A DNA stretch of 63,783 nucleotides, filler included, from Psammoneis japonica (GCA_008632985.1; 4 parts of 4 records of this genome joined end to end with filler, not necessarily neighbours in it), one strand, 5' to 3'. Positions 13,290 through 54,379 are shown, counted from the whole stretch's first letter. Program-made: numbers and translations. Notes: generated by a model not told the origin, from the letters alone.

Positions 13290-13359
13290 CGATAATTCGG
13301 TAATATCGCCAAATATTGTTCTTGTTTTTAACCGTGTATGTTATTGTTTTGGCTAGTCC

Positions 13360-21235: not shown

Positions 21236-21239
21236 CAGC

Positions 21240-29076: not shown

Positions 29077-29460
29077 GACGCGTTCCAGCCCTAGGTGGGA
29101 CTCCGTGTGACATTGGGCCCGTAGAATTCTACGTGCGAGCTCACGAGAATTTAATCAATGGACACATTTGTCTTCAACATCAAATGAACGGCCAAGTTTG
29201 TGGCACAATTATGCTTCTTACCACTCGACGTTTTTGCAAATGCACCTGCCCTACGCGATTCTTAAGACATTGTAGAATCGCGCTGTAACAATAAATGTCA
29301 AAAGTTTTTGGACGGATCGCTCAATAAGTGTGCCGTAAAATGACACAAAATATCGAAAAAATCACGTAGAAATCTACGTGCGCGACATACGACGTGATTC
29401 AAAAAACTATCGATGTCACAGTTCAGCAGTGCGAGGTCCCACCTAGACCTGGAACACGTC
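29077..29460 (+). mobile_element. MITE / non-autonomous TIR element (384 bp), ~27-bp imperfect TIRs, 4-bp TSD ACTT
   Basis: Left end GACGCGTTCCAGCCCTAGGTGGGACTC. Right end (reverse complement) GACGTGTTCCAGGTCTAGGTGGGACCTC. ACTT at 29073-29076 and 29461-29464. Partial copies at 42560-42860, 53662-53829, 54178-54243 and 60447-60512. Confidence 0.8.
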
Positions 29461-30739
29461 ACTTGTCTGCTGTCAACTGGGCATGAAGCTGTTTGGCACT
29501 GCCACTGGAGACGCAGGAGTTGCTCCACGCCGTCTGAACCCCAGCGGCTGCAGTTTTGTTTTCTGCTTTGAAAGAACTGGAGTGGCCGGGGAAGACCTGG
29601 GTGATTTGGAAAATCAAGATGCAGCAGCAGAGGAAAACGAATGTTCTCAATCCCCAAATGATTTTGGCTCAGATGTTGACAAGTCGGTGGCACAACAAGA
29701 ATTGAGTTGTCCTGAGGACAAGAGAGGCATCCCTCCCAATGGTGCCGACAAACACTGTGACTCTGAATCACCGGACTTCGACGACATGAGGGAATCACCT
29801 CAAGAGAGCCCAGATCTCTCAGTGCAACCAAAGAAAACAAAGGTGTTGTTTTTGTGCATGACACAGACAAATGACATTGATTCTCTGTCATTCACAAATG
29901 TGCTTGACGACATCAACAACGACTTGTTCAGTGGAAATTCCAAACTGAGATCCGACGCGACAAGGATGCTTGCCTGTCGTGACACGGTGCTTGATGCAAC
30001 CAACCGCACCATTGATTGCGAATTTTGCACAGCTTCTCTGAGCAACGGTCACAACGCCCATCACCTCAACTGCAACGCATGCAGTCCTGCATTTTGCAAC
30101 GAGGTCATCACAAAGTTCGGAAGCAACTTTGAGGAAAATCAACTTGGATTGCTTTTGGCCACAAAAGGGTTGGTTGAGCGACAGATTCAACCCATGCTTC
30201 TTCTTCGGCAGGACATTGCCTGAACTGTCAAACGCAATGAAAGTTGGCTGGCGATGCCATCAGCATCCTTTTTGATGTTGAGACATTTCTTTCCCATGTC
30301 TTGCACAAGGAGTCCATTGTTGAAATGCACCACGCCCTTTTTCCGAAGGATGTGCGCGTCCTGTTGCACGAACCGCACCATTGCAGCTGTTTCGATGATG
30401 AACAGTGCAAACAAAAGCTGAGTCTAGATCATGCACACCAGGTGAACAAATGCCTGGCTGGTGTTGCAAACAGCAAAGTTGGCCAGTCGGTTCCAGAACC
30501 TTTTTGCCTTCAAGCCAAAGAGGTTTGGAAGTGGCTGAGCAACGAAAACCACCACATCAATCTTTGCAAATGGACAGCGCCACTTCAGCTGGCATTCATT
30601 GGACACAGAAATGGCACAAAACATGTTGAGATGGCAACTGCAGTGACAACCAATGAAAAGTTGGAAAGATGGTCAGACACAAAAACACATGAGGTGACGA
30701 GCCGGTTCCTCACAAAGAGCAGCTCCCCGCCAATGATTG

Positions 30740-32500
30740 AGCCACATTGATGCATGTCGAGTCAAACGATCGTCCCATTGACATGCCTCATCAAGTCGTG
30801 GTCGCAGCTTTTTGCAGGTGGAGAACAGACGTGTTGCGGGGCATGCAAATGCACACCTGTGTTGTCAAAGGCTGCCAATGAGACAGATGGAAGACGAGGC
30901 AGGAGATCATGCCTTCGTCCATCCAGAGTCAAATCCAAATTTATGTTGAAGTCGTGCAACCAAAACTCCATTGCGCAATGATCATTTCAACACTCCTCAG
31001 GGTGCATCGTGTGCAGATGCAAGAGAAGAGCCTCTGCGAGCTTCTGTTGCCACTTGAGGCAGCCATCCAATGGACTGTCCTTGCTGAGTGCTGCTGCAGC
31101 AGAGCCGGTCCATCCAAGTGCTGGCTTGTTGAGACAGGAAACAATCTCCACATTGATTGGAGAACAAGAAAGACCAAGCTGATTGGTTTGGCAGGATGTG
31201 TTTGCAACATTGTTGGCAGAACACATGCAGAAGCGATGCACTCAACCGGCGCCACCACCATTGGATGATTTCCGTCCACAGACAAAGTCTTGTGACTTCT
31301 GGTCACCAAACATTGGCCCTTGCACAAGTCGGACATGCATGCACCGGCGAACACCACCCAAGTTTGCCATCATGAGGGGAGGCTCTGCCTGCAATGCCTT
31401 CAAATCTTCCAAGAGAAAAGACAACATGTCATGGTGAGCCTGCATGTTTGATGAACACGGGGGCTTGCCCGATTGCATGTCTTTGTTCACATTCCCGTTC
31501 TCATCGAGTGCAGCAACCGCACCATCCTTGTCTGTGCTGGGCATGAACCCCAGGTGATGCCAGGCGCAATCATGCTCACGCACATGCCTCTTGGCAAGAA
31601 GAGTGCAGAACAACCAGGTTTCGAGGGGACACCTTTGACAGGCATCAGTCCCTGTCTGATCAGCGCATGAGGCGATTGGCAACAGCAAGTCCTTCTTGCA
31701 GTCAAAGTCACTGGGGAGGGCATTGCATGTGTCAGAGCACCATTTGTTGGACATGATCTCACCAAGATCACAATCGTTGATGGGAACGCACTTGTGGAAA
31801 CGTTCCTGCAGGGACTTGTTCGCGTTGAGATTGTGCTCGTTGTCAAACATCGAGTGGGCGAGCAAATCTCTCAACATGTCCAGCATGCGGAAGCGAGTGA
31901 CTTCCTGCCCACCAATGAGGCGAGTGTCAGGCTGGGGCAGAGAAACCTTCTCGTGGAGTTTCTTTGCCAACAAGTCACGCCCAAGACACTGGGAACAATC
32001 GAATTTCCGCTTCTTGCTGAACCGGCGCAACAGGGTGAGCAGCTGTCCATAGAATTTGTGAGTGGCGCCGGAATTGTCACACAGTGCAATCAGCTCCAAC
32101 AAGGCCTCCTCTGACAGTGCAAAGGTTGGCAGATCAGGTGCATCCCCGTGCAAGGCATCGGAGTTGGCATTGCTGGTGGTGGGGAGGACGCCAGGGGGTG
32201 GATCCTGGAGCAAAATGGATTCTTCACATGCATCCACCGGGGAAGAATGCAAAGAACCGGCAGGAGGAGTGCCAGGGAACATTTTGTAAAGAGAGGAATC
32301 GTCATCGTCACCCACGTTGTCATCACAATCCTCTTCCTCCTCCTCCTCCTCCTCCTTGGATTCTTCATTGGGGGGGGGCGTGGGCTGCAGATCGTTCGCG
32401 GGTGGGAAACTGTGTGAGTCATCATCTCCGTCAAGGCCCGTGCTGGGATTTGGTGCTTTGTCATTCTCAGGTGCAGAAACGGATGACTGACAAGCAATTT
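30740..32500 (-). mobile_element. Decayed Plavaka-like transposase
   Basis: LLELIALCDNSGA, MLRDLLAH, GEIMSNKWCSDTC (W-Y..T-Y), LLLPIASCADQTGTDACQRCPLE (Y.D.TG.D..QRYPLE), AWHHLGFMP, FGDQKSQDFVCGR, VHRFCMC. Confidence 0.7.
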
Positions 32501-33449
32501 GCTGCTTTCGGAACACAAGAACGGCGGCTTGCGACATCTGGCACAATCGAGTTGTGGCAGATGCACTGGGGTGGGCTGCATTGTGCAAGCGGTGGTTGCG
32601 ACGGTGGGAAACAGGCATGCCAAGCTAAGAGGGCCATTGGAAATGAGAAATGCAAAGATGCAGGACAAAACAATTGGGTGCTTGTTCACAACCATTTGTT
32701 GGCGTGCGTGTGTTGGATTGTTTTTTGAATCAAATTGTTGAGTGTGCACCCTGCTGACTTTTGAATGGGAGACACTTGGTGTGGTGGCAATGGCCGTTGG
32801 AGAGTTGGCCACAGGGAGGCAATTGGACATGAGGGCATGCACACATTCGGAAATTAAAGACGGCATTTTTTGAATTGGAGAGAGGATCTGTTTAAATTTC
32901 AATGCAAATGTCCAGCCAAACAAAGAAACATTGGTGAAAGACACTGTTCAGGTGAGCAGAAATTTGTGCTTGGAAATGGAGAAGGATTGCCGTCACCCAC
33001 ACATGGTCCACAAGACTGGCCACATCCATCAACGTGCTTGCAGCACGTGCACATGAGCACACACCAGAAATGAAAACACAGAGCAGCAGCAAGGACAATG
33101 GTGCATGTGGAGCAGGAGCTGAGCTCAACCGAGTGGATGGCGGATGAGGCAAAGGTGATGGAAGACACAGCGAAGGTGAGAGATCATGCAAAGGAAACAT
33201 TGTTCCTCAGTGTGACACTCACATTTGATGAAAAGGAAATGGAGGAAACGGGCATGCTCTGCTGAGATTATGAACAGAACTGCGGCCCCAAGATGATGCA
33301 TGGCCTGCTGAACAAATTGCCTGAGGCAGAGCAAAAAACATGCCTGCGCCACCTGTGGCTTGCGATGAAACAAAAAAAGATGCATCAGGAGTGGCCAGCA
33401 ATTGAGAGGTTGAATGCATGCCAGGCGCAGCAGGACAAGTTCCACGGTG

Positions 33450-34486
33450 AGTGATGACGGAGGGTGAAACAAGGACAGCAAATGCGATTGCTGACGTCGT
33501 GTTTCCTGCCGCAAATGAAGCTCTTTGTGCATGCTGCAATGAGAACAATTGCATCTTGCCATTGCCAGAAAGATTCCAAGATCGCTTGGGAAACCCGGTT
33601 TTGCAGATGGTGTTCCACGACCACATGCTGCGTCCGATTGTCAGAGACACACGCTGGAAAGAGTGCATTTCCAGGAACAAGAGGATGGGCACAGCGTGCG
33701 CTGAGGCGTTTGCCCACATGCTCCTCAAGAACAACTGCGATCCATGGCATGCCGAGTGCAAGAGCCAAAACAAGGACAGGACTTTGATGACGGATTGCAA
33801 CGTGGAGTTGGCTGATGATGGAGGAGGCAAGGACTTGTGTGAGATGATCATGCCAGACATTGCGACAGCCAAAGAGAGGGATGGCCAGGACCAGAGCAAG
33901 TTTGTGCTGCTCCAGAAAGATCCACAAGAAGAAGAGACATCGCAGGAGGAAGGTCCATCAGTGCAAGAACTGAAGCAGAAGTTCAAGAACACAAGGGAAG
34001 AGTCCGTCACAAAATGTGATGCCATGGCCAAGAAGACAAAGAGAAGAGCCAAATGCTGCACTGCAAGTGACGGCTCTGAAGAAGGCTGCAGAAGTGCTTG
34101 TTGCCGTCCAAAACGATGCGGGTGCATCCAGCAAAAAGAGAAAGGTTGTCAGGAACCTTGAGCATTTCACGGCGGCAAAGCCAAAAAACTTGGACGGAAA
34201 CGTGGGACCAAGGAAGTGCAAGACACCGAGGAAGAGCAAAGGGCGGTCACCAAAGGCTGACAAGTTCTTTGTTGACATGGTCAAGGAGATCAAGCAAGAT
34301 GTTGCAAGCGGACACCTGGGCCGGTGGGAAGAGCTCCACAGAGCCGTTGCAACCAAGCGAGATCAATGGGTGGCAGAAGAAGCGTGGGACGGCTCGGACA
34401 ATGAAGATGACAAACAGGTCAGTTGTGCTGAAGTGTGCGAACTGGAGTTGGCGGTGGTTTGGTCGAGAGCAACTCAGCAGCCATGA
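33450..34486 (+). mobile_element. Decayed accessory ORF of the type accompanying diatom Plavaka-like elements
   Basis: FHDHMLRPIV..TRWK...AEAFAHMLLKNNCDPW...LMTDC (EAFA.L.LKNNY..W), divergent from the transposase. A related ORF lies at 59145-59567 (WFCDHIL...DEALALSAMENCW...WGDNGIKR). Confidence 0.5.
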
Positions 34487-36267
34487 ATTGCAGTCGCAGC
34501 CATTTGAAGTCAATTGCAGCAGAGACATGCAATGAATGGATGGGACCATGGAAAACACTGTTTGAACACACCAGTCAACCCATTGACTTCAACCGTAAAA
34601 ATTGGAAACAAATCAAAACACGGCATTCGATCATCACCCAGTCGGCACCAACAAGAAAAGTCAAATCCAACAAAGCAACTGGTTGGCATCATCGACTGAT
34701 TGGGTGGCACCCCACTTGTTGGGGTTGACAACTGTTTTGGAAAGTCCACGGACATTTGTTGGTTGGCATGGACATTCATTTGTTTTCAATCATGGCCATT
34801 TGTGGCAAACAGTCGTGACTTGCGTTGAATCGCTTTGGTTCATCACAAGTGAGCACATGTGCGGGCTGTCAGTGTTTTGTCACCAACAATGTCCGTTGGC
34901 ATGACCACAAGACAATTCATGGAAACGGCCTCTGACGGAGTCACCATGAGAAAAATGCCATGATCATCATAGAAAATCTGGGACACCCGGCATTTTGTTG
35001 TGTTTCAAGACATGCCTGTTTGCACGAGACTCCTTTTGCAAGGATCACATGTCTTTGAGACATTTGATGTTTGTCGAAGACAATTTTTGAGAGACACACA
35101 CATTTGATGCACACACAATCAATGTTTGAAAATTCAGTGCATGCTCTTTTAATGCCAGCACACATTTCTGCGATGCGATTTAATTTGGCAACTCTCCATT
35201 TGTCGCAGAGAAAAATCTTTTTTTGTCTCCACTTTCTGTTGGCAGAGACAAATTTTGTTAGAGACAACCGGAAACAGATGGAGACAAGACAAATGGAGAT
35301 GGAGACAAAACAGATGGAGACAACAGAGACAAATCCAAATGTGCACAGTGCGCACACAGCACCCACGCAGATGCTGCGCCATGGAGCACATGACGATCTG
35401 CCTCCAGAGAGCAGAGAGAGAGCTGGCAGGCCTGCCGTGCTGCAGAGCAAAGGCTGGGCATCGCAAGACCTTGATCTGCTCTCCATTTGGCATTGAGCCA
35501 TGATGCACGTTGCTTCAAAATGGCGCTGACATGACAGTGGGAACTGCTCCAGGACGTGCTCCAGTCCCAGGTGACGCACAAAACGACAATCGATTTTGAG
35601 TGCAATTTGTGTGTCTTTTAGTGTGTGCAGCATTTTTGCACAAAATGCTCAGATGGATTGACTTTCACAGGCTTCCAGAGCATGAACATTTGAGCAGTTT
35701 CTTGAGGGGTGTTCAAGTCCTCATGGGGTGTGCACCACAAACTTCCTCAGCAGACTCAATGCTGATTGTGCATCAGTGGATGTGTGCTGAGATTTCTTTG
35801 CAGGCAGAAAACCCACCAAGCAGCATCGTAGAAAAAATTGTTCAGGTGACATCCAAATGACGGCAATGTTTTCGTAACTGGGGAGGGGTTCTTCAAATCT
35901 GAGAAAACCCGAATCCATTTTTAGCAGAATCAATGCAAATCTACACTTTTTGAGAATCTGCACCCATTTCTCCGGAATCCTTGAAAATCTGCACCCATTT
36001 TGAACCAAAATCTGTGGCACAGATTTTCTGTGATAATCACGGTGGCANNNNNNNNNNNNNNNNNNNNNNNNNNNNNNNNNNNNNNNNNNNNTTAATTAAT
36101 TAANNNNNNNNNNNNNNNNNNNNNNNNNNNNNNNNNNNNNNNNNNNNTTTAAAAAAAACAAACATTCTTTTCAAGGAGCGAGAATGGCGCAGAAGAAAAA
36201 AATGTCAAAAGTTGATCAATGCATGGCCTGACAACTGCGCTGTAAAATCACACAAAATTTCGCCACA

Positions 36268-36780
36268 CTCCAGTTTAGTTGAGTTCTTGAAGACAGCTTC
36301 ATTGTGGCAGAAAACATCAGTGGCCCCATCCATGGGGATTCTGAGCATCCAAAGCTTGCAGCGCAAGGCTTCGATTTGCTCCACTGCAGTCTTCACAGCC
36401 ACGAACTCCGACCCAAAAGCAGAGGACTCTGTGGCATTCTGCCGCTTGGAGCAATGCAAGATGGGTGCTCGTTGGACAAATGTCAGGATCCCAGTGTGGG
36501 ACCTGCGCATCACATGGCATCTGGAGTGATCAGCGTCGACAAAGCAAGCAGTGGTCACGCTGTTCCCGCGTGCCTCCGGCACATTCGGCTGCATTGGCTC
36601 AGCCGCGCCAGGGCGACATTCTTCCCAATCACACTTGGCAAAGCAACTCTCATCAAAGACGGGCTCAGTGTCGTCGAACACTGGTGCAGACTCAGAGCGA
36701 GCCTTCAAGCATGCAAAGATGTGGAGCACCTCGTCCAGGTGTCCAGCTCATGGTGCCGCCAAGCAGGAGGACATGAGGGG
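36268..36780 (-). mobile_element. Copia RNase H fragment, inverted duplicate of 45893-46410
   Basis: FVDADHSRC..RRSHTGIL, SKRQNATESSAFGSEFVA; near-identical to the 45944 ORF. Confidence 0.88.
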
Positions 36781-37365
36781 TGGACGCCCAGATTGTTCCG
36801 TTCATGTGGCCAGTCTCCCCCAATGTCATTGTGAGAGACACTGGCCTGAGCAGCAAAGCAGCGATGCAGCCGGACTTTGACGGTCCTTGGCACACACTGA
36901 CGCACGCGCGCTCTTCCTCATTTTGTGCCGTGGCATCAGCAGAAGGTTCCCATCCAAGGGATGTTTGTTTTCCTTGAAATGACACATTTGTTTTCCTTGA
37001 AACCACGTGCTTGTTTTCCTTGAAATGCAAATCCACACATTTTTGACATTTTGTGCACTCTGATGCGTGTGTTGTGCACAGCATCATCACACAGCATTTG
37101 TCCGACTCTCCCTCTCATCGCAGGATGGGTTGTCTCCATGTGGCGCATCTGCACAGCGGACTTGCAAATTTGACCATGCACTCCCTCTGTCAGGCAGGAT
37201 GGGTTGGTGCCATGTGGCGCATCCGGCCAAGGGAGGAGTGGGTTCGAAGCCCAGCCGCCCACCCCGGATGGGGTTGGAAAGGGGCAGGCCGAGAAAGAAA
37301 AGGAGGCTTTGATTTGAGGCCGATTCAAGCCAGCATCGTCGCACAGCATTTGTCCAACTGAACAT

Positions 37366-39540
37366 GTCTTTTCAAGGAAAACAAACATGTTTTCCTTGAA
37401 AAGACACGCTTGTTTTCCTTGAAACCACATGTTTGTTTTCCTTGAAACCACATGCTTGTTTTCCTTGAAACCACATGTTTGTTTTCCTTGAAAAGACATG
37501 TTTGTTTTCCTTGAAACCGCATGTTTGTTTTCCTTTAAACGACATGTTTGTTTTCCTTGAAACGACATGTTTGTTCTCCTTGAAAAGACATGTTTGTTTT
37601 CAAGACATGCCTGTTTTCCTTGAAACGACATGTTTGTTTTTGTTGAAAAGACACGCTTGTTTTCCCTGAAAAGACATGTTTGTTTTCCTTGAAACGACAC
37701 GATTGTTTTTCTTGAAACGACATGTTTGTTCTCCTTGAAACGACATGTTTGTTTTCTTTGAAAAGACATGTTTGTTTTCCTTGAAACCACATGTTTGTTT
37801 TCTTTGAAATGACACATTTGTTTTCCTTGAAAAGACATGTTTGTCTTCCTTGAAATGAAATGTTTGTTTTCCTTGAAACGACATGTTTGTTTCAATTGAA
37901 AAGACATGTTTGTTTTCCTTGAAACAACACGTTTGTTTTCTTTGAAACGACATGTTTGTTTTCCTTGAAACGACACATTTGTTTTCCTTGAAACGACATG
38001 AATGTTTTTCATGAAACAACATGTTTGTTTTCCTTGAAACGACATGTTTGTTTTTCTTGAAACCACGTGTTTGTTTTCTTTGAAAACAAACACGTCCAGA
38101 GCACTCAGCTGAAGAAACTCTGACACAAGAGCAACAGCTCTTTTCCTTTGATCTTGTTGACATGATCATGTGGAACCATGGAGATGCTGCCATGCACGCC
38201 ATCTCTCCTTGATGACCTGTGTTCTCCCTGGCTGGACCTTTCTCACCAAACAGTTGCTCGCCGCTGAACAGAGAGCAGTGCGGGTCACATTGTCAAATGT
38301 GGGCGCAGCTGAAACACAAATCAGCTCATCTTGTGTGGCCCGCAAGCTCTTGGTGGTGGCAGGTTTTGACCGCCAGACATCAAAAAAAGAGTTGCTCAAT
38401 TGATGGTGCTGCTCAAGCACTCCAGAGGTGTCACACATTTTCATCTGGGAGAGGATCAACCCCACAAATTGCTGCACATTGCAGTCTCATGGATCCAACT
38501 GAACTTGTGGACAGGCGCGAGCTTCTTGTGGGGTGCAGATGCTGTTCTCCTGCACATGGAATTGTGTTGGTTTGCTTCCGTCAGTGCGTTCTTGCACAGA
38601 ATTCAAGGCAAACTCATGTTGTTTTAGGAAAGACAGATGTGTCATTTCAAAAAAAATGTCAATTCAAGGAAAACAAACATGTTCTTTCAAGGAAAACAAG
38701 CGTGTCTTTTAAAGGAAAACAAACACGTCGTTTCAAAGAAAACAAACATGTTGTTCCAAAGAAAACAAGCGTGTCTTTTCAAGACAAACAAACACGTCAT
38801 TTCAAGGAAAACAAACATGTCTTTTCAAGGAAAACAAACATGTCGTTTCAAGGAAAACAAGCATGTGGTTTCAAGGAAAACAAACATGTCTTGAAAACAA
38901 ACATGTCTTTTCAGAGAAAACAAACGTGTCATTTCAAGAAAAACTGTGTCGTTTCAAGGAAAACAAGCACGTCTTTTCAAGGAAAACAAACATGTCTTTT
39001 CAAGGAAAACAAACATGTCTTTTCAAGGAAAACAAACATGTCGTTTCAAGGAAAACAAACATGTCTTTTCAAGGAAAACAAACATGTCGTTTCAAGGAAA
39101 AAAATGTGTCTTTTCAAGGAAAACAAACGTGTCATTTCAAGGAAAACAATCATGTGGTTTCAAGGAAAACAAACATGTCTTTTCAATGAAAACAAACATG
39201 TCTTGAAAACAAACATGTCTTTTTAAGGAAAACAAACATGTCTTTTCAAGGAAAACAAGCACGTTGTTTCAAGGAAACAAACATGTGTTTTCAAGGAAAC
39301 AATGTGTCTTTTCAGGGAAAACAAACACGTCTTTTCAAGGAAAACAAACACATCGTTTCAAGGAAAACAAACGTGTCGTTTCAAGGAAAAAAAATGTGTC
39401 TTTTCAAGGAAAACAAACGTGTTGTTTCAAGGAAAACGAACACGTGGTTTCAAGGAAAACAAACATGTCTTTCAATGAAAACAAAGATGTCCTGAAAACA
39501 AACATGTCTTTTTGGGGAAAACAAACATGTCAAGGACATG
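37366..39540. repeat. Two arrays of the 23-bp satellite TTTCAAGGAAAACAAACATGTCG in opposite orientation (37366-38090 minus, 38605-39540 plus)
   Basis: 23-nt period; the translation cycles every 23 aa (SFQGKQTCRFKENKHVVSRKTNM = 3 units). Confidence 0.95.
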
Positions 39541-39544
39541 TTCA

Positions 39545-42048: not shown

Positions 42049-42859
42049 CCCAGGCAGGGTCCGCAACTTCAAGATCATGGGTTGAGTGAGCACTGGGTGC
42101 ACGCTCACGGACAGAAGTGTTCGCGAGCCGGAGGAGCGCTTGGGCACCCAGATCAGAAAGTGCCAGTTGTCTGACTTGGAAAGCAAGGCACGCTGGGCCA
42201 TGTCCTCTGACCTTTGAGTCAAATGGGCATTGGCTGATGTTGAGTTGGAGCTCAAGCAAATTGACAGGTGTCTTCCGACAAATGCGTCGACGCCCTTGAG
42301 CTTGGGAAACAGGCCTGAACTGGATGGCTTGCCTGAGTTAAATGCCAAAACGGCCAACTGTCATCAAGGCTTTCTTGGCGTGCTCCAAGTTGTTTGTTTT
42401 TCTTGAAAAGACATGTTTGTTTTTGTCAAAAAGACATGTTTGTTTTCCTTGAAACAACGCGTTTGTTTTCCTTCCTTGAAAAGACATGTTTGTTTTCCTT
42501 GAAAAGACACGTTTGTTTTCTTTGAAACAACATGTTTGTTTTCCTTTAAACACATGTTTGACGCGTTCCAGGTCCAGGTGGGACTCGCACTGCTGAACTG
42601 TGACATCGACAGTTTTTTGAATCACGTCGCATGTCGCGCACGTAGATTTCTACGTGATTTTTTTGACATTTTGTGTCATTTTACGGTGCACTTGTTGAGC
42701 GATCCATCCAACAACTTTTGACATTTTTTGTTACAGCGCGATTCTACAATGTCTTAAGAATCGTGCAGGGCAGGTGCATTTGCAAAAACGTTGAGTGGCA
42801 AGAGGCATGATTGTGCCACAAACTTTGCCGTTTGTTTGATGTTGAAGACAAACACATTG

Positions 42860-45220: not shown

Positions 45221-45892
45221 GTGTTCAGTTGGACAAATGCTGTGCGATGATGCTGTGCACAACACATGCCTGAATGTGTGCTGCGCTTCCTGAGGTTGCT
45301 GGCTCAAGTGGTTGTGAGTCTTTGCGCTTCCTGAGGTCGCTGGCTCAAATTGGCCTCAAATCGAAGCCTCCTTTTCTTTCTCGGCCTGCCCCTTTCCAAC
45401 CCCATCCGGGTTGGGCGGCTGGGCTTCGAACCCACTCCTCCCTTGGCCGGATGCGCCACATGGCACCAACCCATCCTGCCTGACAGAGGGAGTGCATGGT
45501 CAAATTTGCAAGTCCGCTGTGCAGATGCGCCACATGGAGACAACCCATCCTGCGATGAGAGGGAGAGTTGGGCAAATGCTGTGTGATGATGCTGTGCACA
45601 ACACACGCATCAGAGTGCACGAAATGTCAAAAATGTGTGGATTTGCATTTCAAGGAAAACAAGCACGTGGTTTCAAGGAAAACAAACGTGTCATTTCATG
45701 GAAAACAAACATCCCTTGGATGGGAACCTTCTGCTGATGCCATGGCGCAAAATGAGGAAGAGCGCGCGTGCGTCAGTGTGTGCCAAGGACCGTCAAAGTC
45801 CGGCTGCATCGCTGCTTGGCTGCTCAGGCCAGTGTCTCTCACAATGACATTGGGGGAGACCGGCCACATGAACGGAACAATCTGGACGTCCA

Positions 45893-46579
45893 CCCCTCAT
45901 GTCCTCCTGCTTGGCGGCACCATGAGTTGGACACCTGGACGAGGTGCTCCACATCTTTGCATGCTTGAAGGCTCGCTCTGAGTCTGCGCCAGTTTTCGAC
46001 GACACTGAGCCCGTCTTTGATGAGAGTCGCTTTGCCAAGTGTGATTGGGAAGAATGTCACCCTGGCGCAGCTGAGCCAATGCAGCCGAATGTGCCGGAGG
46101 CACGCGGGAACAGCGTGACCACTGCTTGCTTTGTCGACGCTGACCACGCCGGGTGCCGTGTGACGCGCAGGTCCCACACTGGGATCCTGACATTTGTCCA
46201 ACGAGCACCCATCTTGCATTGCTCCAAGCGGCAGAATGCCACGGAGTCCTCTGCTTTTGGGTCGGAGTTCGTGGCTGTGAAGACTGCTGTGGAGCAAATC
46301 GAAGCCTTGCGCTGCAAGCTTCGGATGCTCAGAATCCCCATGGATGGGGCCACTGATGTTTTCTGTGACAATGAAGCTGTCTTCAAGAACTCAACTAAAC
46401 CGGAGTCCACTTTGAAGAAGAAGCACAATGCAGCTGCCTGTCACAGGACTCGCGAGGCACAAGCCGCTGGAACAGCGCGCATTGCTTGGGAAGACGGGCG
46501 CACGAATCTGGCAGACGTGCTGACCAAGTTGTTGCCTGGACCGAAGCTCCAGGAAATCACAAGTCATGTCCTGTGGTGA
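45893..46579 (+). mobile_element. Copia (CoDi-like) RNase H domain, complete to stop
   Basis: GHLDEVLHIFACLK, FVDADHAGCRVTRRSHTG, SKRQN..ESSAFGSEFVA, FCDNEAV, PESTLKKKHNAAACHRTRE, NLADVLTK. Purine tract AAGGGGG at ~46723. Confidence 0.92.
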
Positions 46580-46912
46580 GCCCCAAAAGGGGACAAACCA
46601 AACGGGTTTGCCGCGCAGGTGCGGCACTTCCCACCCCCAAAATGTGGCTGCTGCCCTGGAGTGGGGCAGCGTCAGGTTGCATTTGTCTGTCGATCTGACC
46701 CAAGCGGAGCCAGCGTCAGTTCAAGGGGGCTGAATGAATGCTGATGTGCTGTCACAAACACAGGCAGTTTGTGTGCCATTGGCGATTGGTTCACTGTTGC
46801 TCAGTCACGGCCCAGCAGCACAACATCCCACAATTCTAGAACCTGTTGATGCTGTTCAACGATCTCTGTCTTGTCTTGCACCCAATTCTCAGCTGTCATG
46901 GCAGTGTTTGGT

Positions 46913-48185
46913 CAGTTTCAAGGAAAACAAACATGTGTTTTCAAAGAAAACAAACACGTGGTTTCAAGGAAAACAAACATGTTGTTTCAGGGAAAACAAA
47001 CATGTCTTTTCAAGAAAAAAAAACATGTCTTTTCAAGGAAAACAAACATGTTTTTTCAAAGAAAACAAACATGTCTTTTCAAGGAAAACAAATGTGTCAT
47101 TTCAGGGAAAACAAACATGTGGTTTCAGGGAAAACAATCATGTCTTTTCAAGGAAAACAAATGTGCATTTCAAGAAAAACAAACATGTCATTTCAAGAAA
47201 ACAACATGTCTCTTCAAGGAAAACAAATGTGTCATTTCAAGGAAAACAAACATGTGGTTTCAAGGAAAACAAACATGTTGTTTAAAGAAAAACAAACATG
47301 TCATTTCAAGGAAAACAAACATGAAAACAAACGTGTCGTTTCAAGGAAAACAAACGTGTCTTTTCAAGAAAAACAAACATGTCGTTTCAAGGAAAACAAA
47401 TGTGTCCTTTCAAGGAAAACAAACGTGTCCTTTCAGGGAAAACAAACATGTGCTTTCACAAAAAACAAACATGTTTTTTCCAGAAAAACAAACATGTCTT
47501 TTCAAGAAAAACAAACATGTTGTTTCAAAGAAAACAAACATGTCTTTTCAAGGAAAACAAACATGTGGTTTCAAGGAAAACAAACATGTGGTTTCAAGGA
47601 AAACAAACATGTCGTTTCAAGGAATAAAAACATGTGTTTTCAAGGAAAACAAACATGTGTTTTCAAGAAAAACAAACATGTGGTTTCAAAGAAACCAAAC
47701 ATGTCGTTTCAGGGAAAACAAACATGTCGTTTCAAGGAAAACAAACATGTCGTTTCACGGAAAACAAACATGTCTTTTCAAGAAAAACAAACATGCAATT
47801 TCAAGGAAAACAAACATGTTGTTTCAAAGAAAACAAACACGTCTTTTCAAGGAAAACAAACGTGTCATTTCAAGGAAAACAAACGCATCGTTTCAGGGAA
47901 AACAAACATGTGGTTTCACAAAAAACAAACATGTCACAAACATGTGGTTTCAAGGAAAACAAACATGTTGTTTAAAGAAAAACAAACATGTCATTTCAAG
48001 GAAAACAAACATGAAAACAAACGTGTCGTTTCAAGGAAAACAAACGTGTCTTTTCAAGAAAAACAAACATGTCGTTTCAAGGAAAACAAATGTGTCCTTT
48101 CAAGGAAAACAAACGTGTCCTTTCAGGGAATAAAAACATGTGTTTTCAAGGAAAACAAACATGTGTTTTCAAGAAAAACAAACAT
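46913..48185 (+). repeat. 23-bp satellite array running into a gap
   Basis: Same unit, with an internal higher-order duplication (~47251-47440 vs ~47941-48125). Confidence 0.95.
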
Positions 48186-49429
48186 NNNNNNNNNNNNNNN
48201 NNNNNNNNNNNNNNNNNNNNNNNNNNNNNNNNNNNNNNNNNNNNNNNNNNNNNNNNNNNNNNNNNNNNNNNNNNNNNNNNNNNNNNNNNNNNNNNNNNNN
48301 NNNNNNNNNNNNNNNNNNNNNNNNNNNNNNNNNNNNNNNNNNNNNNNNNNNNNNNNNNNNNNNNNNNNNNNNNNNNNNNNNNNNNNNNNNNNNNNNNNNN
48401 NNNNNNNNNNNNNNNNNNNNNNNNNNNNNNNNNNNNNNNNNNNNNNNNNNNNNNNNNNNNNNNNNNNNNNNNNNNNNNNNNNNNNNNNNNNNNNNNNNNN
48501 NNNNNNNNNNNNNNNNNNNNNNNNNNNNNNNNNNNNNNNNNNNNNNNNNNNNNNNNNNNNNNNNNNNNNNNNNNNNNNNNNNNNNNNNNNNNNNNNNNNN
48601 NNNNNNNNNNNNNNNNNNNNNNNNNNNNNNNNNNNNNNNNNNNNNNNNNNNNNNNNNNNNNNNNNNNNNNNNNNNNNNNNNNNNNNNNNNNNNNNNNNNN
48701 NNNNNNNNNNNNNNNNNNNNNNNNNNNNNNNNNNNNNNNNNNNNNNNNNNNNNNNNNNNNGCCCCTTTCCAACCCCATCCGGGGTGGGCGGCTGGGCTTC
48801 GAACCCAAAATTCTTCCTTTGGCCGGATGCGCCGCATGGCACCAACCCATCCTGCCTGACAGAGGGAGTGCATGGTCAAATTTGCAAGTCTGCTGTGCAG
48901 ATGCGCCACATGGCAAGAACCCATCCTGTGATGAGAGGGAGAGTTGGGCAAATGCTGTGTGATGATGCTGTGCACAACACACGCATCAGAGTGCACGAAA
49001 TGTTAAAAATGTGTGGATTTGCATGATGACAATTTGTCAAAATGTTGCAAAAAATTGTTGTTGCACAATGACAGGCCAACCTCTGGGTGCAAGTTTGCTG
49101 CGCCAATGTCGCGACAACTTGTTGAGAATCATGTGTGCCATTTTTCACTGTGCCCACATCGCCATTTCTGCCTCCACCTTGTTGCCATGTGCCAGTCCAT
49201 GATTGCATTGCCGCGCAATCCTTGGTTTGTCAATTTTTGCAAACAGGGGTGTGATCACAGAACCACTTGCACGCCTGCTTGTTCCTTCGTTTGCTGCCGG
49301 CGACAGTGTCTGGGCCAAGCAGATCCCATGTCGGCACAATCGGGATGTCTTTCTTTTCATTCTTGCCGCGGCTTGACTTTTTCCTGCCTTGCTTTTTCCT
49401 CTTGACTGCCGCCTTGAGTTTCTTTTCTC

Positions 49430-50306
49430 ATTTCAAGAAAAACAAACATGTGGTTTTAAGGAAAACAAACATGTCATTTCAAGGAAAACAAACATGTCTT
49501 TTCAAGGAAAACAAACATGTCATTTCAAGGAAAACAAACATGTGTTTTCAAGGAAAACAAACATGTGGTTTCAAGGAAAACAGACATGTCGTTTCAGGGA
49601 AAACAAACATGTCATTTCAAAGAAAACAAACATGTCTTTTCAAGGAAAACAAACATGTCATTTCAAGGAAAACAAACATGTCATTTCAAGGAAATCAAAC
49701 ATGCGTTTTCAAGCAAAACAAACATGTGGTTTCAAAGAAACCAAACATGTCGTTTCAGGGAAAACAAACATGTCGTTTCAAGGAAAACAAACATGTCTTT
49801 TCAAGGAAAACAAACATGTTTTTTCAAGGAAAACAAGCATGTCTTTTCAAGGAAAACAAATGTGTTGTTTCAGGGAAAACAAACATGTGGTTTCAGAGAA
49901 AACAAACACGTCTTTTCAAGGAAAACAAACATGTTGTTTCAAAAAAACAAACATGTCGTTTCAAAGAAAACAAACATGTCTTTTCAAGGAAAACAAACGT
50001 GTCATTTCAAGGAAAACAAACATGTGGTTTCAAGGAAAACAAACATGTTGTTTAAAGAAAAACAAACATGTCGTTTCAAGGAAAACAAACATGTCTTTTC
50101 AAGGAAAACAAACGTGTCGTTTCAAGGAAAACGAACATGTGGTTTCAAGGAAAACAAATGTGTCGTTTGAAGAAAAACAAACACATCGTTTCAAGGAAAA
50201 CAAACGTGTCGTTTCAAGGAAAACAAACATGTTGTTTCAAGGAAAACAAACGTGTCATTTCAAGGAAAACAAACATGTCTTTTCAGAGAAAACAAACATG
50301 TCTTTT
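49430..50306 (+). repeat. 23-bp satellite array
   Basis: Same unit. Confidence 0.95.
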
Positions 50307-50309
50307 CCA

Positions 50310-52770
50310 GTTGGACAAATGCTGTGTGACGATGCTGTGCACAAACATGCCTGAATGTGTGTGCGGAGAAGGGGCTCAACAGCTGGCCGAGTGGCAACTT
50401 CTTTGCCTCTTGGGTTGTTGAGAACCTCCTGCACTCGCCAGGACAGTGTGCAGTGTTCTGAGTGGTTGTGAGTCTTTGTGCTTCCTGAGGTCGCTGGCTT
50501 GAATCGGCCTCAAATCCAAGCCTCCTTTTCTTTCTCAGCCCGCCCCTTTCCAACCCCATCCAGGGTGGGCGGCTGGGCTTCGAGCCCACTCCTCCCTTGG
50601 CCGGATGCGCCACATGGCGCTGGCCCATCCTGCCCAACATGGGGAGTGCATGGCCAAATTCGTGAGTCCTCCGTGCGGATGCACCACATGGTGACAACCC
50701 ATCCTGCGACGAGAGGGAGAGTTGGACAAATGCTGTGTGACGATGATGCGCGCAACACACACCCAAATGTGTGCGCGGAGAAGGGACTCAACAGCCAGCC
50801 GAGTGGCAACTTCTTTGCCTCTTGGGTTGTTGAGAACCTCTTGCACTCGCCAGGGCAGTGTGCAGCGTTCTGAGTGGTTGTGAGTCTTTGCGCTTCCTGA
50901 GGTCGCTGGCTCGAATCGGCCTCAAATCCAAGCCTCCTTTTCTTTCTCGGCCTGCCCCTTTCCAACCCCATCCGGGGTGGGCGGCTGGGCTTCGAGCCCA
51001 CTCCTCCCTTGGCCGGATGCGCCACATGGCACCAACCCATCCTGCCTGACAGAGGGAGTGCATGGTCAAATTCGCAAGTCCGCTGTGCAGATGCACCACA
51101 TGGCAACAACCCAGAGTTGGACAAATGCTGTGCGATGATGCTGTGCACAACACACGCATCAGAGTGCACGAAATGTCAAAAATGTGTGGATTTGCATGAT
51201 GGCAATTTGTCAAAATGTTGCAAAAAATTGTTGTCGCACAATGACAGGCCAACCTCTGGTTGCAAGTTTGCTGTGCCAATGTCACGACAACTTGTTGAGA
51301 ATCATGTGCGCCATTTTTCACTGTGCCCACATCGCCATTTCTGCCTCCACCTTGTTGCCATGTGCCAACCCATGATTGCATTGCCGCGCAATCCTTCGTT
51401 TGTCAATTTTTGCAAACAGGGGTGTGATCACAGAACCACTTGCATGCCTGCTTGTTCCTTCGTTTGCTGCCAGCGACAGTGTCTGGGCCAAGCGGATCCC
51501 ATGTCGGCACAATCGGGATGTCTTTCTTTTCGTTCTTGTCGCGGCTTGACTTTTTCCTGCCTTGCTTTTTCCTCTTGACTGCCGCCTTGAGTTTCTTTTC
51601 TTTTTCCTTTCCCTCTTCCTTGGCGACAACGCCTGCACAGACAAAGCATCACCGTCATCTTCTTGCGAGATGCACGCAACTCTCGAGTCACACACATTGG
51701 TCACCCAACTTGCGGGCCATTGCCTCCGCCCCAACAGCCGAACACACCGTGTTTCTGAGATTGTCAACTTGCCTTTTTGCCGCCTCTTTTGCCCATTCCT
51801 CCCAAGTTCCTGACCAATTTGAAGTGTCCATGTTGCCACCAGCAATCTGTTTCTTGACAAACATTGAGACGCTCCCATTGCTTGCCAATTCTGACGGACT
51901 GAGAAACTTCACCTGTGGAAAGAGATCATTTCCAGCCACCTTCTCCACTTCTGGTTTCAGCGCACCATGCGCTGCCTGCGCGCCCATTCTCTTCTTCATC
52001 TTCAACGCTGCCTGAAGTCTCAGGCTCATTGGCTCAACAGTCTCATTTTTCTTTCTCTTCTTTGCCGGTGGTGCTGGAGACGACATCTTGATCTTTTCAC
52101 AGCAGGCCTGCTCCAGCTCCAGGTGCTCCGCGCGGGTTCGATTCCCATCATTTGGAAATTTGTGCATTTGGCGCAATTGACTTTTTCCAAATCCGTTTTT
52201 TGGCAAATCAAAGGGTGAGTGTGCACTTCACATGCATTTTTGGGTGTGCACTCACCTTTCGATTTTCGAAACGATCAAAATTGAAGGAGTCAATTGTGCC
52301 AAACTGCGCAGAAAATCGGCCTCTCGCGTGATGAAAAGCAGAGCACCTGGAGCTGGAACAGGCCAGCAACAATGAGAGGAGCATTGCTGTTTGACAGTGC
52401 AGCCGTCATTTCGGTCGTGTTGAGACAGCCAGCCACTCCATTTTTTCTCCACAACATTGAACAAATTGTTGTCAGCAACCACGCTGCTGCAGTGCATCCT
52501 TGCTCCGAAGAGTGCGCTCCAATGAGGAATGTCCCCATTTGCGTGGCTGCTGCCATGTGGGTTGATCCAGCCAATGGAAAGCCACGCCCACTGCCAGCCC
52601 ACGAGGCTGTGTTTTTCATTGAAAGAATGACTGACACCCTGCTGTGCCCCAGCCAACTGTGAGCAAGTGAGCTGACTGTCCACAACACCCCTCGTCAGTT
52701 TGACCCCAACAGCGCGCACTCTGTTGTTTTCCCTGACTTGAAAATCAGGGTGCTTTTGCGTGCGCAAGGT
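50310..52770 (+). repeat. Direct segmental duplicate of 39545-41550 with an extra ~460 bp (about 52020-52485)
   Basis: Colinear near-identical sequence and ORF translations (e.g. 40569..41129 vs 51318..51878). A more diverged inverted relative lies at ~58745-60035. Confidence 0.88.
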
Positions 52771-52827
52771 GAGTTGAGTGCCAGAGCGGGACTTGGGCCT
52801 GTCTGCAGAGAAGACTTCAATGTCAAG

Positions 52828-53510
52828 GTCAAACAAACATGTCTTGAAAACAAACATGTCTTTTCAAGGAAAACAAACATGTCGTTTCAAGGAAAACAAA
52901 CACGTCGCTTCAAGGGAAAAAAATGTCTTTTCAAGGAAAACAAACATGGCATTTCAAGGAAAACAAACATGTGGTTTCAATGAAAACAACCATGTCTTTT
53001 CTGGGAAAACAAGTGTGTCGTTTCAAGGAAAACAAGCACGTCTTTTCAAGGAAAACAAACACTTCATTTCAAGGAAAACAAACATGTCTTTTCAAGGAAA
53101 ACAAACGTGTTGTTTCAAGGAAAACAAACGTGTTGTTTCAAGGAAAACAAACATGTCTTTTCAAGGAAAACAAACGTGTCATTTCAAAGAAAACAAACAT
53201 GTGGTTTCAAGGAAAACAAACATGTCTTTTCAAGGAAAACAAATGTGTCATTTCAAGAAAAACAATCGCGTCATTTCAAGGAAAACAAACATGTCTTTTC
53301 AGGGAAAACAAACGTTTCTTTTCAATGAAAACAAACATGTCGTTTCAAAGAAAACAAACATGTCTTGAAAACAAACATGTCTTTTCAAGGAAAACAAACA
53401 TGTCGTTTCAAGGAAAACAAACATGTCGTTTCAAGGGGGAAAAAATGTCTTTTCAAGGACAACAAACATGTTGTTTCAAGGAAAACAAACATGTGTTTTC
53501 AAGGAAAACG
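52828..53510 (+). repeat. 23-bp satellite array
   Basis: Same unit. Confidence 0.95.
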
Positions 53511-54379
53511 TCAGACTGGACATTGGATGTTTGCCGCTCAAGACAGCACAGAGCCAACAGAGACAAAATTTGCCAGGGGCCCCACTCAAGATGGCGCCTG
53601 CCACTCCAGACTGGATGTTGAGCACTCGAGACACTGAAGCTCACCACTTGAGACGATGACAGACGCGCTCCAGGTCCAGGTGGGACCTCGCACTGCTGAA
53701 CTGTGACATCGACAGTTTTTTGAATCACGTCGCATGTTGCGCACGCAGATTTCTGCGTGATTTTTTTGACATTTTTTGTCATTTTATGGTGCACTCATTG
53801 AGCGATCCGTCCAACAACTTTTGACATTTNNNNNNNNNNNNNNNNNNNNNNNNNNNNNNNNNNNNNNNNNNNNTTAATTAATTAANNNNNNNNNNNNNNN
53901 NNNNNNNNNNNNNNNNNNNNNNNNNNNNNCTGTGCTGCTCTTTTCTTTGGAAAGCCCAGGCTTGCCCACTTCATCTCCTGATTCCTCGTTGATCGGATCG
54001 AACTGCTCCTGCACATTGCGGGCTCTTTCCACCTTTTTGCGCTGCAAAGCAGCCCATTCCCAGGTGCACAAACTTGCTCAACACACAAAATGAGATTGTT
54101 GGACAGCAAGTCATGTGGGGAGAAAACCACCTGCAGTTCTCTTGGATTGCAGCTTGGTCAACCACACAAAGACATTTGACGGGTTCCAGCCCTGGGCAGG
54201 ACTCCATGTGACATTGGGCCCGTAGAATTCTGCATGCGAGCTCCACAGCAAACTTGTGCTGCAATGAAAACGCAAATGATTGCAGCCAGAAAAAGAGGCA
54301 ATTTTACGAGCGTGTCTCCTCCTTCATGCTTGGAGCACATCATTGACAGTTTGCCCAGGCATGTTCTTCAGATGGTCAA

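What the first reader, a model, noticed from the sequence alone, without database searches (positions are those of the whole stretch)
29077..53829. Three MITE copies form a mutation series; one TA is resolved both ways
Seen: the copy at 29077-29460 keeps many TA, the copy at 42560 fewer, and the copy at 53662 almost none. In a common orientation: CACTTATTGAG (TA at 29325) vs CACTTGTTGAG (42693) vs CACTCATTGAG (53796). GTCTAGG->GTCCAGG; CGATAGT->CGACAGT; TCGTATG->TCGCATG; CACGTAGATTTCTACGTG is kept at 42.6 kb but is CACGCAGATTTCTGCGTG at 53.7 kb; GGTAAG->GGCAAG; CATAAT->CATGAT. Most differences fall on TA sites. Inference: TA is ancestral, and conversion is progressive, independent per copy, post-insertional and acts on both DNA strands, which argues against RNA editing.
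Basis: seen in the sequence. Interest (0 to 1): 0.88.

Follow-up and report, generated by a model that had tools for sequence, protein, structure and literature searches.

The report
Repeat DNA losing its TA dinucleotides
Copies of a small mobile element, and the whole repeat-rich chromosome end around them, are turning every TA into CA or TG while the neighbouring genes keep theirs, which looks like a targeted DNA-mutating process so far reported in only one other protist.

Summary
In the 168 columns shared by all three copies, TA counts are 8, 3 and 1, and every quoted motif is present.

The direction TA->CA/TG is supported by three tests:
- Contigs of a public run show a very abundant family. 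In it TA coexists with both CA and TG at single sites, and TA is the commonest state where copy 1 itself has CA or TG.
- A transposase remnant nearby has Cys or His at 4 of 5 columns where 62 homologues have Tyr. Against its closest homologue, 9 Tyr align with 7 Cys, 1 His and 1 Leu.
- Copy 1 also keeps more CpG.

The effect is regional. All 24 two-kb bins of repeat DNA have TA observed/expected of 0.00-0.17. The seven gene-island bins have 0.44-0.73, with a sharp border near 3827.

RTA/TAY sites are converted and TTAA survives.

"Independent per copy" holds only in part, because copies 2 and 3 share five conversions.

The closest known case is TpA hypermutation of integrated viruses in Bigelowiella natans (2026 preprint). 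The best named protein relatives here are diatoms. The enzyme is unknown.

The parts
29077..29460 (.). Copy 1 of the MITE-like element. It is full length with 19 TA (one private, at 29292) and is flanked by a 4-bp direct repeat ACTT.
   Evidence: Loose ends of contigs fall at 29077 and 29460 (table 7).
29076..29101 (.). Left terminal inverted repeat. Its partner is at 29436-29461.
   Evidence: 26 nt, 88% complementary.
42560..42852 (.). Copy 2, in the opposite orientation and lacking the far end. It has 6 TA in 293 bp.
53662..53829 (.). Copy 3, in the opposite orientation and cut by an assembly gap. It has 1 TA in 168 bp.
54173..54243 (.). End of a related element family that shares about 70 bp with the left end of copy 1.
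   Evidence: 89% over 71 bp.
60445..60512 (.). Second end of the same related family. It lies in a duplicated flank.
   Evidence: 87% over 68 bp.
1..3826 (.). Compartment depleted in TA and CpG, to the left of the gene island. TA o/e is 0.01-0.10 and CG o/e is 0.07-0.25.
   Evidence: TA positions jump from 3393 to a dense series starting at 3827.
3827..17983 (.). Gene island with ordinary dinucleotides (TA o/e 0.44-0.73, CG about 1). It holds intron-free ORFs for an aminotransferase, a Myb protein and a JmjC/F-box protein.
18084..62100 (.). TA-depleted repeat compartment. TA o/e is 0.00-0.17 and CA+TG o/e is 1.52-1.81. It holds the satellites, the element copies and a transposase remnant.
31116..32624 (-). 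Remnant of the N-terminal part of a Plavaka/KDZ-like transposase. It is nearly free of Tyr and was used as the outgroup test.
53830..53929 (.). Synthetic assembly linker (N44 + TTAATTAATTAA + N44) that truncates copy 3. The same linker is at 17984-18083 and 36048-36147.
62774..63783 (+). Telomere repeat (TTAGGG)n at the end of the window.
   Evidence: period 6, 165.7 copies.

Best explanation
A region-targeted, context-specific mutational process converts T:A pairs inside 5'-TA-3' into C:G pairs. On either strand this gives CA or TG. It acts throughout the repeat-rich subtelomeric compartment and spares the adjacent gene island.

New element insertions arrive TA-rich from active, unmutated sources (copy 1). 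They then erode (copy 2, then copy 3) until almost no TA is left. Copies that are already partly eroded are also propagated, which produces shared conversions.

The process prefers RTA, which is the same as TAY on the other strand, and leaves TTAA. It runs alongside ordinary CpG->TpG/CpA decay in the same compartment, which suggests silenced, methylated chromatin as the target.

The consequences are shown in the sequence: there are almost no TAA/TAG stops and almost no Tyr codons, and transposase Tyr becomes Cys or His and Ile becomes Met. That the process disables mobile elements is my inference from these changes, and it would make this a counterpart of fungal RIP working in the opposite chemical direction.

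Shown: the direction, the dinucleotide and flank specificity, the regional limits, and the progressive series.

Inferred: the enzyme. My preferred guess, at about 0.35-0.4, is deamination of adenine in TAY on DNA by a TadA/ADAT2-like deaminase, as proposed for Bigelowiella natans. From recall, the natural TadA substrate is U-A-C. Oxidised thymine (5hmU/5fU) mispairing is the main alternative.
For: (1) Regional signature. All 24 two-kb bins outside the gene island and the telomere have TA o/e <= 0.17 and CA+TG o/e >= 1.52. The 7 gene-island bins have 0.44-0.73 and 1.04-1.17. The border lies within 450 bp, near 3827.

(2) The series. TA counts are 8/3/1 and CA+TG counts are 23/30/32 in the shared columns. 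TA is always in the less eroded copy (8/8, 7/7, 2/2).

(3) Family pile-up. 3186 contig pieces of run X1 were laid.
- At 29351/2, C is 12% and G is 61%, with TA the remainder.
- At copy 1's CA at 29204/5, T is 76% and G is 31%, so TA is at least 45%.
- At 29156/7, TA is at least 28%.
- At 29186, the family has A in 84% where copy 1 has TG.
- TA is the only state one step from both CA and TG, apart from CG. These numbers bound CG to be low.

(4) Outgroup test.
- At 5 columns where Tyr is the consensus of 62 homologues, the remnant has C, C, C, H and Y. At other conserved columns C or H appears in 8 of 145 (Fisher P = 1e-4).
- Against P0121 (69% identical), 9 Tyr align with 7 Cys, 1 His and 1 Leu, and 3 Ile align with Met as ATG.

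(5) Copy 1 keeps CG at 4 sites where copy 2 has TG/CA, and the reverse holds at 1 site. By an independent clock, copy 1 is the less decayed copy.

(6) Sequence context.
- Of the residual TA, 32 of 89 are TTAA. That compares with 17 of 539 in the genes, and with 8.8% expected if the residual TA were fresh mutations.
- ATAT, GTAC and ATAC/GTAT together number 0 of 89, against 26% expected.
- All 10 listed conversions in the pile-up lie in the 16 favourable half-sites and none in the 20 others (P = 3e-5).

(7) The same TpA->CpA/TpG spectrum was measured de novo in B. natans mutation-accumulation lines (bioRxiv 10.64898/2026.01.13.699255; Results and Discussion read).
Against: - Only three partial copies lie in the window, and no whole genome is held, so no rooted tree of copies could be built.
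- The pile-up comes from contigs of what may be the same sample as the assembly. It is depth-weighted, shows no haplotypes, and hides 27 of its 67 variable places.
- The lower bounds on TA assume that no unlisted variants occur at those sites.
- The zero counts in the half-site test mean 'not among the 40 best-supported rows'.
- The Tyr test rests on one remnant (5 columns, 9 Tyr).
- TA can also arise. Copy 1 has a private TA made by a transversion (29292). The related end at 60445 has TA where every other copy has CA.
- Two of 11 conversions among the three copies are in disfavoured contexts.
- Copy 1 sits unmutated inside the depleted compartment. The process must therefore be slow, episodic, or not purely positional.
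- Nothing here identifies the enzyme, the modified base, or the targeting signal.
Confidence: 0.78

Rival explanations
1. Same process and direction, but the chemistry acts on thymine rather than adenine. T in RTA would be oxidised (5-hydroxymethyl- or 5-formyl-uracil, by a TET/JBP-like enzyme) in silenced chromatin and would mispair with G, giving T->C.
For: The preference can equally be read as R before the T. The palindromic target makes adenine and thymine chemistry indistinguishable from sequence alone. From recall, some protists carry abundant 5hmU that is enriched at TpA.
Against: No modified-base data are available and no candidate gene could be searched for. From recall, the TAY reading matches the U-A-C substrate of TadA-type deaminases.
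Confidence: 0.25
2. A RIP-like process runs in the opposite direction. Repeats suffer C->T at CpA (CA/TG->TA), so the TA-rich copy 1 would be the most mutated copy.
For: RIP is the classic repeat-targeted mutator and acts on the same dinucleotide pair. One related copy has TA where the others have CA.
Against: - Repeat DNA here is almost free of TA (o/e 0.00-0.17), not enriched in it.
- Single sites carry TA, CA and TG together.
- Conserved Tyr codons have become Cys or His.
- Copy 1 also keeps more CpG.
Confidence: 0.02
3. There is no special mutator. The TA-poor DNA either has a foreign origin with its own composition, or TA is removed by selection (for example against stops or unstable RNA).
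For: TA is mildly under-represented in most genomes. The compartment borders coincide with repeat content.
Against: - Depletion is strongest in non-coding satellites and dead elements and weakest in genes and their promoters, where o/e is 0.8-0.9 at 3750-4500.
- A graded series within one element family, and Tyr->Cys/His in a dead transposase, show in-place change.
Confidence: 0.05
4. GC-biased gene conversion near the telomere drives AT->GC changes.
For: The location is subtelomeric, and the net direction at TA sites is AT->GC.
Against: - G+C is the same in both compartments: 0.41-0.53 against 0.47-0.53.
- The change is confined to TA with a flank rule.
- CpG is lost at the same time, which is GC->AT.
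Confidence: 0.02
5. The pattern is an assembly or sequencing artefact.
For: The assembly has gaps and synthetic linkers. The run that was laid may be the assembly's own data.
Against: - Contigs built independently by Logan reproduce the flanks, with one differing letter.
- No known chemistry removes TA only in some regions, with a border of under 450 bp and a flank rule.
Confidence: 0.02

Closest known systems
TpA hypermutation of integrated NCLDV and virophage DNA in Bigelowiella natans (bioRxiv 10.64898/2026.01.13.699255; abstract, Results and Discussion read)
   Same: - The changes are TpA->CpA/TpG transitions on both strands.
- They are confined to particular regions while the rest of the genome is ordinary.
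[quoted passage not shown]
   Different: - That work measured the rate directly in mutation-accumulation lines. Here only the accumulated result is seen.
- There the targets were two viral insertions with Rho TpA 0.45 or higher. Here a whole 44-kb subtelomeric repeat compartment, a very abundant small element and satellites are at 0.00-0.17.
- The RTA/TAY rule with TTAA spared, and the coupling to CpG loss, are not mentioned in that paper's main text. Its supplements could not be read.
- The organism differs. The best named protein relatives here are diatoms, and no B. natans match appeared among the 120 rows listed.
Repeat-induced point mutation (RIP) of fungi
   Same: Mutational erosion of repeated and mobile DNA leaves genes intact. 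It creates two compartments with different dinucleotide content and ruins transposase reading frames.
   Different: - RIP is C->T, mostly at CpA, and creates TpA. Here TpA is destroyed.
- A trigger by repeat homology is not shown here. Copy 1 has 389 laid pieces that are >=99% alike, yet it is unmutated.
Methyl-CpG deamination decay
   Same: A self-complementary dinucleotide is converted to TG/CA on either strand in silenced DNA. This decay also occurs in the same compartment (CG o/e 0.07-0.81).
   Different: - The target is TA, not CG, and the direction is AT->GC.
- Loss per site is faster for TA. Between copies 1 and 2, 9 of 30 TA positions changed against 4 of 40 CG positions.
Deaminase editing of mobile elements and viruses in animals (APOBEC on DNA, ADAR on double-stranded RNA); recalled knowledge
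   Same: A context-specific transition hypermutation is aimed at parasitic sequences.
   Different: - APOBEC gives C->T.
- ADAR acts on RNA and, from recall, prefers G after the edited A. Here TAG is only intermediate, and TAT and TAC are preferred.

Membership tests
MITE (small non-autonomous element with terminal inverted repeats) | Terminal inverted repeats | tested here: met
   26 nt, 88% complementary, at 29076-29101 / 29436-29461.
MITE (small non-autonomous element with terminal inverted repeats) | Target-site duplication | tested here: inconclusive
   ACTT flanks copy 1 on both sides. Both ends are present for only one copy, so the length and motif cannot be confirmed.
MITE (small non-autonomous element with terminal inverted repeats) | Short, non-coding, high copy number | tested here: met
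   The element is 384 bp and no Pfam family matched the ORF that overlaps it. 3186 contig pieces were laid. Summed depth over the element is 1e5-5.6e5 against 440-870 in the flanks. The tool warns that this is not a copy number.
MITE (small non-autonomous element with terminal inverted repeats) | An autonomous partner with the same ends | not tested
   No whole genome is held. A second family shares the first 70 bp.
TpA->CpA/TpG regional hypermutation (B. natans type) | Changes are transitions at TpA, giving CpA or TpG | tested here: met
   CpG changes and a few other changes occur as well.
TpA->CpA/TpG regional hypermutation (B. natans type) | [quoted passage not shown] | tested here: met
   24 of 24 depleted bins pass and 0 of 7 gene-island bins pass.
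TpA->CpA/TpG regional hypermutation (B. natans type) | Elevated de novo mutation rate measured in real time | not testable with these tools
   This needs mutation-accumulation or pedigree sequencing.
TpA->CpA/TpG regional hypermutation (B. natans type) | Targets are of foreign (viral) origin | tested here: inconclusive
   The targets here are transposon remnants, a small mobile element and satellites. No viral domain was found in the 93 ORFs scanned, out of 110 listed.
Fungal RIP | C->T at CpA, leaving an excess of TpA in repeats | tested here: not met
   TA o/e in the repeats is 0.00-0.17, and the direction is the opposite.
Plavaka / KDZ transposase (ORF 31245-32624, minus strand) | Match to the Pfam model above its curated cut-off | tested here: not met
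   PF18759 scores 19.9 bits against a cut-off of 26.3. However, 375 homologues reach E <= 0.001 and 30 reach <= 1e-30. Of the 150 best hits, 41 are 1000 aa or longer. I call it Plavaka-like, not a proven member.

The most novel reading that the evidence does not exclude
This is a chromatin-targeted DNA-editing defence that erases TA dinucleotides (5'-TAY-3' / 5'-RTA-3', with TTAA immune) from mobile and repeated DNA until none remain. It operates in a lineage whose best named protein relatives are diatoms. Together with the Bigelowiella case, this would make TpA editing a widespread genome-defence system of SAR protists, equivalent to RIP. It is probably run by a DNA-acting adenine deaminase. 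Practical side effects would be Tyr-free, stop-free pseudo-ORFs that mislead gene callers, and a built-in clock for dating insertions.
Probability: 0.45. Interest if true: 0.9.

Novelty: new member of a known kind. Interest (0 to 1): 0.8.

Why it matters
Apart from one 2026 preprint on a chlorarachniophyte, the four literature searches that bear on this found no description of TpA-specific AT->GC hypermutation of parasitic DNA.

This window adds four things:
- It shows the end state of such a process in a different organism: tens of kilobases with essentially no TA next to normal genes.
- It shows that transposons and satellites are targets, not only viral inserts.
- It gives a flank rule, which is a concrete handle for matching candidate enzymes and can be checked against the published mutation list.
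- It offers a natural time series (fresh, half-eroded and exhausted copies of one family) for estimating rates.

It also explains why such regions yield long spurious ORFs, and why their 'proteins' lack tyrosine.

Tried and rejected
- Two scans of metagenome contigs with conserved parts of the element found 0 matches.
- Four look-ups of earlier findings returned nothing.
- Runs X2 and X3 added almost nothing: 1 and 13 pieces.
- Pfam on 93 of the 110 ORFs of >=130 aa in the depleted DNA gave only the weak Plavaka hit and one chance-level hit. I left out the 17 ORFs that lie in satellite arrays.
- tblastn with 41 full-length homologues found only the N-terminal third of the transposase (31041-32369), so the Tyr test could not be extended.
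- Rfam and tRNA scans found nothing.
- The feature-based atlas search put the aminotransferase nearest to fungal clusters. The HMMER search gave diatoms as the best named hits, at 49-55% identity. I trust the HMMER result but regard the lineage as unsettled.
- Cluster look-ups gave no organism names.
- I looked for TG-versus-CA strand asymmetry along the window and found no domain pattern.
- The idea that the window is B. natans itself was rejected. Genes here are intron-free ORFs, and none of the 120 rows listed was an identical or a B. natans match.
Full report
**What is there**

The window is eukaryotic and ends in a telomere, (TTAGGG)n at 62774-63783. It contains synthetic assembly linkers (N44-TTAATTAATTAA-N44) at three places. 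One of them, at 53830-53929, cuts copy 3.

Over the whole window TA is at 0.20 of expectation, CA and TG are at 1.50, and CG is at 0.60. That average hides two compartments.
- The seven 2-kb bins from 4001 to 18000 carry intron-free ORFs for an aminotransferase, a Myb protein and a JmjC/F-box protein. They have TA o/e 0.44-0.73, CA+TG 1.04-1.17 and CG 0.89-1.12.
- All 24 other bins up to 62000 have TA o/e 0.00-0.17, CA+TG 1.52-1.93 and CG 0.07-0.81.

The left border is sharp. TA positions run 3393, then 3827, and from there about one every 12 bp. The right border falls in the gap at 17984-18083.

The depleted part holds 23-bp and 32-bp satellite arrays, the element copies and one recognisable transposase remnant.

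**The element**

Copy 1 (29077-29460) has 26-nt terminal inverted repeats, an ACTT direct repeat on both flanks, and internal palindromes. Copy 2 (42560 to about 42852) lacks the far end, and copy 3 (53662-53829) is cut by the gap. Two further loci (54173-54243 and 60445-60512) share only the first 70 bp or so and belong to a related family.

When contigs of a public run were laid on copy 1 at >=80% likeness, 3186 pieces matched. Of these, 389 were >=99% alike. Summed depth over the element was 1e5-5.6e5, against 440-870 in the flanks. The tool warns that this is not a copy number. Still, the family is clearly very abundant, and copy 1 belongs to a young, nearly identical subfamily.

Two contigs join the flanks while skipping the element (29064->29463 and 29029->29465, table 5). 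Paralogous copies of the flank therefore exist without the insertion.

In the 168 shared columns the counts for copies 1, 2 and 3 are:
- TA: 8, 3, 1
- CG: 13, 12, 11
- CA+TG: 23, 30, 32

Between copies 1 and 2 there are 294 aligned positions and 22 differences.
- Eight are TA against CA/TG, with TA in copy 1 every time.
- Five are at CpG.
- Four are two CA-against-TG doublets.
- Two are other transitions and three are transversions.

Copies 1 and 3 show 16 differences, seven of them at TA. Copies 2 and 3 show nine, two of them at TA.

TA sites are thus the largest class rather than strictly 'most'. The excess is not chance. P = 3e-4 for eight of 19 transitions landing on TA positions, and P = 7e-4 for all eight having TA in copy 1. 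TA positions changed in 9 of 30 cases against 8 of 223 for positions outside TA and CG (P = 2e-5).

**Direction**

Three sequences cannot root themselves, so I used three other tests.

First, the family pile-up.
- At copy 1's TA at 29351/2, 12% of depth reads C at the T and 61% reads G at the A.
- At copy 1's CA at 29204/5, 76% reads T and only 31% reads G. At least 45% of the family therefore has TA there.
- At 29156/7 the bound is at least 28%.
- At 29186, 84% has A where copy 1 has TG.

A site that carries TA, CA and TG together must have started as TA. Starting from CG is the only other one-step option, and these numbers exclude CG as the main state. Copy 1 has therefore itself lost some TA.

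Of the 39 listed variable rows inside the element, 29 involve the TA, CA/TG and CG interplay. Of all 67 variable places, 54 are transitions.

Second, an outgroup test. The ORF at 31245-32624 on the minus strand is a Plavaka/KDZ-like transposase remnant. Its Pfam score is below the cut-off, but 375 homologues reach E <= 0.001.
- At the five columns where 62 aligned homologues have Tyr as consensus, the remnant has Cys, Cys, Cys, His and Tyr. At other conserved columns it has Cys or His in 8 of 145 (P = 1e-4).
- Against its closest homologue (P0121, 69% identical, Tyr 4.0%), nine Tyr align with seven Cys, one His and one Leu, and none is kept. Three Ile align with Met encoded as ATG.
- TAY->TGY/CAY and ATA->ATG are exactly the single steps the hypothesis predicts.

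Third, a CpG clock. Copy 1 keeps CG at four sites where copy 2 has TG or CA, and the reverse is true at one site. By the well-understood CpG clock, copy 1 is the less decayed copy.

A RIP-like reading (CA->TA) is contradicted by all three tests, and by the near absence of TA in the repeats.

**Timing**

Copy 1 carries 19 TA in 384 bp. The nearest TA outside it are at 28715 and 30425. The surrounding depleted DNA predicts 0.75 TA in 384 bp (P = 2e-20). The element therefore entered DNA that was already depleted and has hardly been touched since.

The conversions in copy 3's palindrome are private to that copy, and so is the both-ways site.

Copies 2 and 3, however, share five conversions resolved the same way. 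The same alleles make up 37-83% of family depth. Part of the 'series' is therefore descent from source copies that were already mutated. The claim of independence per copy is only partly right.

**Sequence context (new here)**

Among 89 residual TA in the depleted DNA, 32 are TTAA. The gene island has 17 of 539. If the residual TA were fresh mutations from CA/TG, 8.8% would be expected (P = 2e-12).

ATAT, GTAC and ATAC/GTAT together count 0 of 89, against 26% expected.

In the pile-up, all seven listed A>G conversions at TA have a pyrimidine after the A, and all three T>C conversions have a purine before the T. That is 10 of 16 favourable half-sites against 0 of 20 others (P = 3e-5). The caveat is that 27 weakly supported rows were not shown.

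Among the three copies, 8 of 11 conversions fit the rule, one is intermediate and two do not fit. The target is best written as 5'-RTA-3', which is 5'-TAY-3' on the other strand.

**Mechanism**

Shown:
- The process is a transition at TA, on either strand, with a flank preference.
- It is limited to a repeat compartment that also loses CpG.
- Per site it is faster than CpG decay.

Inferred:
- Targeting goes through silenced, methylated chromatin.
- The chemistry is unknown. I favour adenine deamination on DNA in TAY by a TadA/ADAT2-like enzyme, at about 0.35-0.4. The B. natans authors propose the same. From recall, the natural substrate of TadA is U-A-C, whereas ADAR prefers G after the A, which does not fit.
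- Oxidised thymine mispairing, read as RTA, is the main alternative at about 0.25. Sequence alone cannot separate the two.

**Comparison and novelty**

The only description I found is the 2026 preprint on Bigelowiella natans (abstract, Results and Discussion read, term search). In that work:
- 231 of 302 de novo nuclear mutations fell in two integrated viral regions.
- 230 of those 231 were A->G or T->C, and all of these fell on TpA.
- The genome held 124 TpA-depleted, CpA+TpG-enriched clusters.

All 24 depleted bins here pass that paper's thresholds.

This window is not B. natans. Its genes are uninterrupted ORFs. The aminotransferase has no identical or B. natans match among the 120 rows listed, and its best named relatives are diatoms at 49-55% identity (the best unnamed hit is 63%).

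I therefore file it as a new member of a very recently described kind. It has a much more extreme end state, different targets (a small mobile element, a transposase remnant, satellites and a subtelomere), and a flank rule that the preprint's main text does not mention. The preprint's supplements, which list each mutation, could not be read. They would show whether the same rule holds there.

**Limits**

There is no whole genome, no rooted tree of copies and no direct rate. The laid run may be the assembly's own data. The lineage and the enzyme are unsettled.

Noticed in passing
window 18084-62100, all six frames: Because TAA and TAG are almost absent, the depleted DNA gives many long stop-free ORFs. 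There are 110 of >=130 aa, and their translations hold 0.0-0.4% Tyr against 1.2-2.9% in the gene island. Gene callers would report spurious, tyrosine-free proteins here.
   Followed up: partly
P0156 and P0124 (public homologues of the transposase remnant): Two of the 62 aligned homologues from other public assemblies also have about 0.4-0.6% Tyr. At the conserved Tyr columns P0156 has H, C, H, C and P0124 has H at two columns. The same erosion seems to occur in copies outside this window.
   Followed up: partly
window 53742-53759 versus 42639-42656: In copy 3 the two TA of an internal palindrome changed in a compensating way: CA in the left arm and TG in the right arm. The inverted repeat stays perfect. 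The related end at 60445 shows the same pattern. A 50% chance per case means this is not significant on its own.
   Followed up: no
window 62774-63783 and 62132-62212: A (TTAGGG)n telomere tract lies at the end of the window, preceded by degenerate G-rich repeats and a 561-N gap. The telomere repeat keeps its TA (TA o/e 2.5 in the last bin), as expected for telomerase-templated DNA.
   Followed up: partly
window 36964-53509: Arrays of a 23-bp satellite, up to 39 copies each, lie in both orientations and alternate with other repeats. The satellite consensus has no TA. Rare TTAA variants look like fresh G->A changes in TTGAAA.
   Followed up: no
window 1-4000 versus 26001-54000: CpG depletion varies widely inside the depleted compartment, from o/e 0.07 at the left end to 0.5-0.8 in the middle. 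TA depletion is uniformly near zero. The two decays appear to have different rates or histories.
   Followed up: no
window 29029-29465 (table 5): Contigs from paralogous copies of the flank join across the insertion site without the element, with 10 or 22 unrelated letters in between. The flank itself is a multi-copy repeat.
   Followed up: partly
window 17984-18083, 36048-36147, 53830-53929: Synthetic linkers (N44 + TTAATTAATTAA + N44) mark scaffold joins. Their TA must be left out of any dinucleotide count. The right border of the gene island coincides with one of them, so its true sharpness is unknown.
   Followed up: yes
window 16810-17982: A 318-bp tandem repeat (3.7 copies, 84% matches) lies inside a long ORF at the edge of the gene island. 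Its TA o/e is 0.36-0.49, slightly lower than in the other genes.
   Followed up: no
window 1248-1919 and 2156-2827, minus strand: Two 223-aa stop-free ORFs of equal length lie about 900 bp apart in the left depleted block. They are probably two units of a repeat. Neither matched a Pfam family.
   Followed up: no
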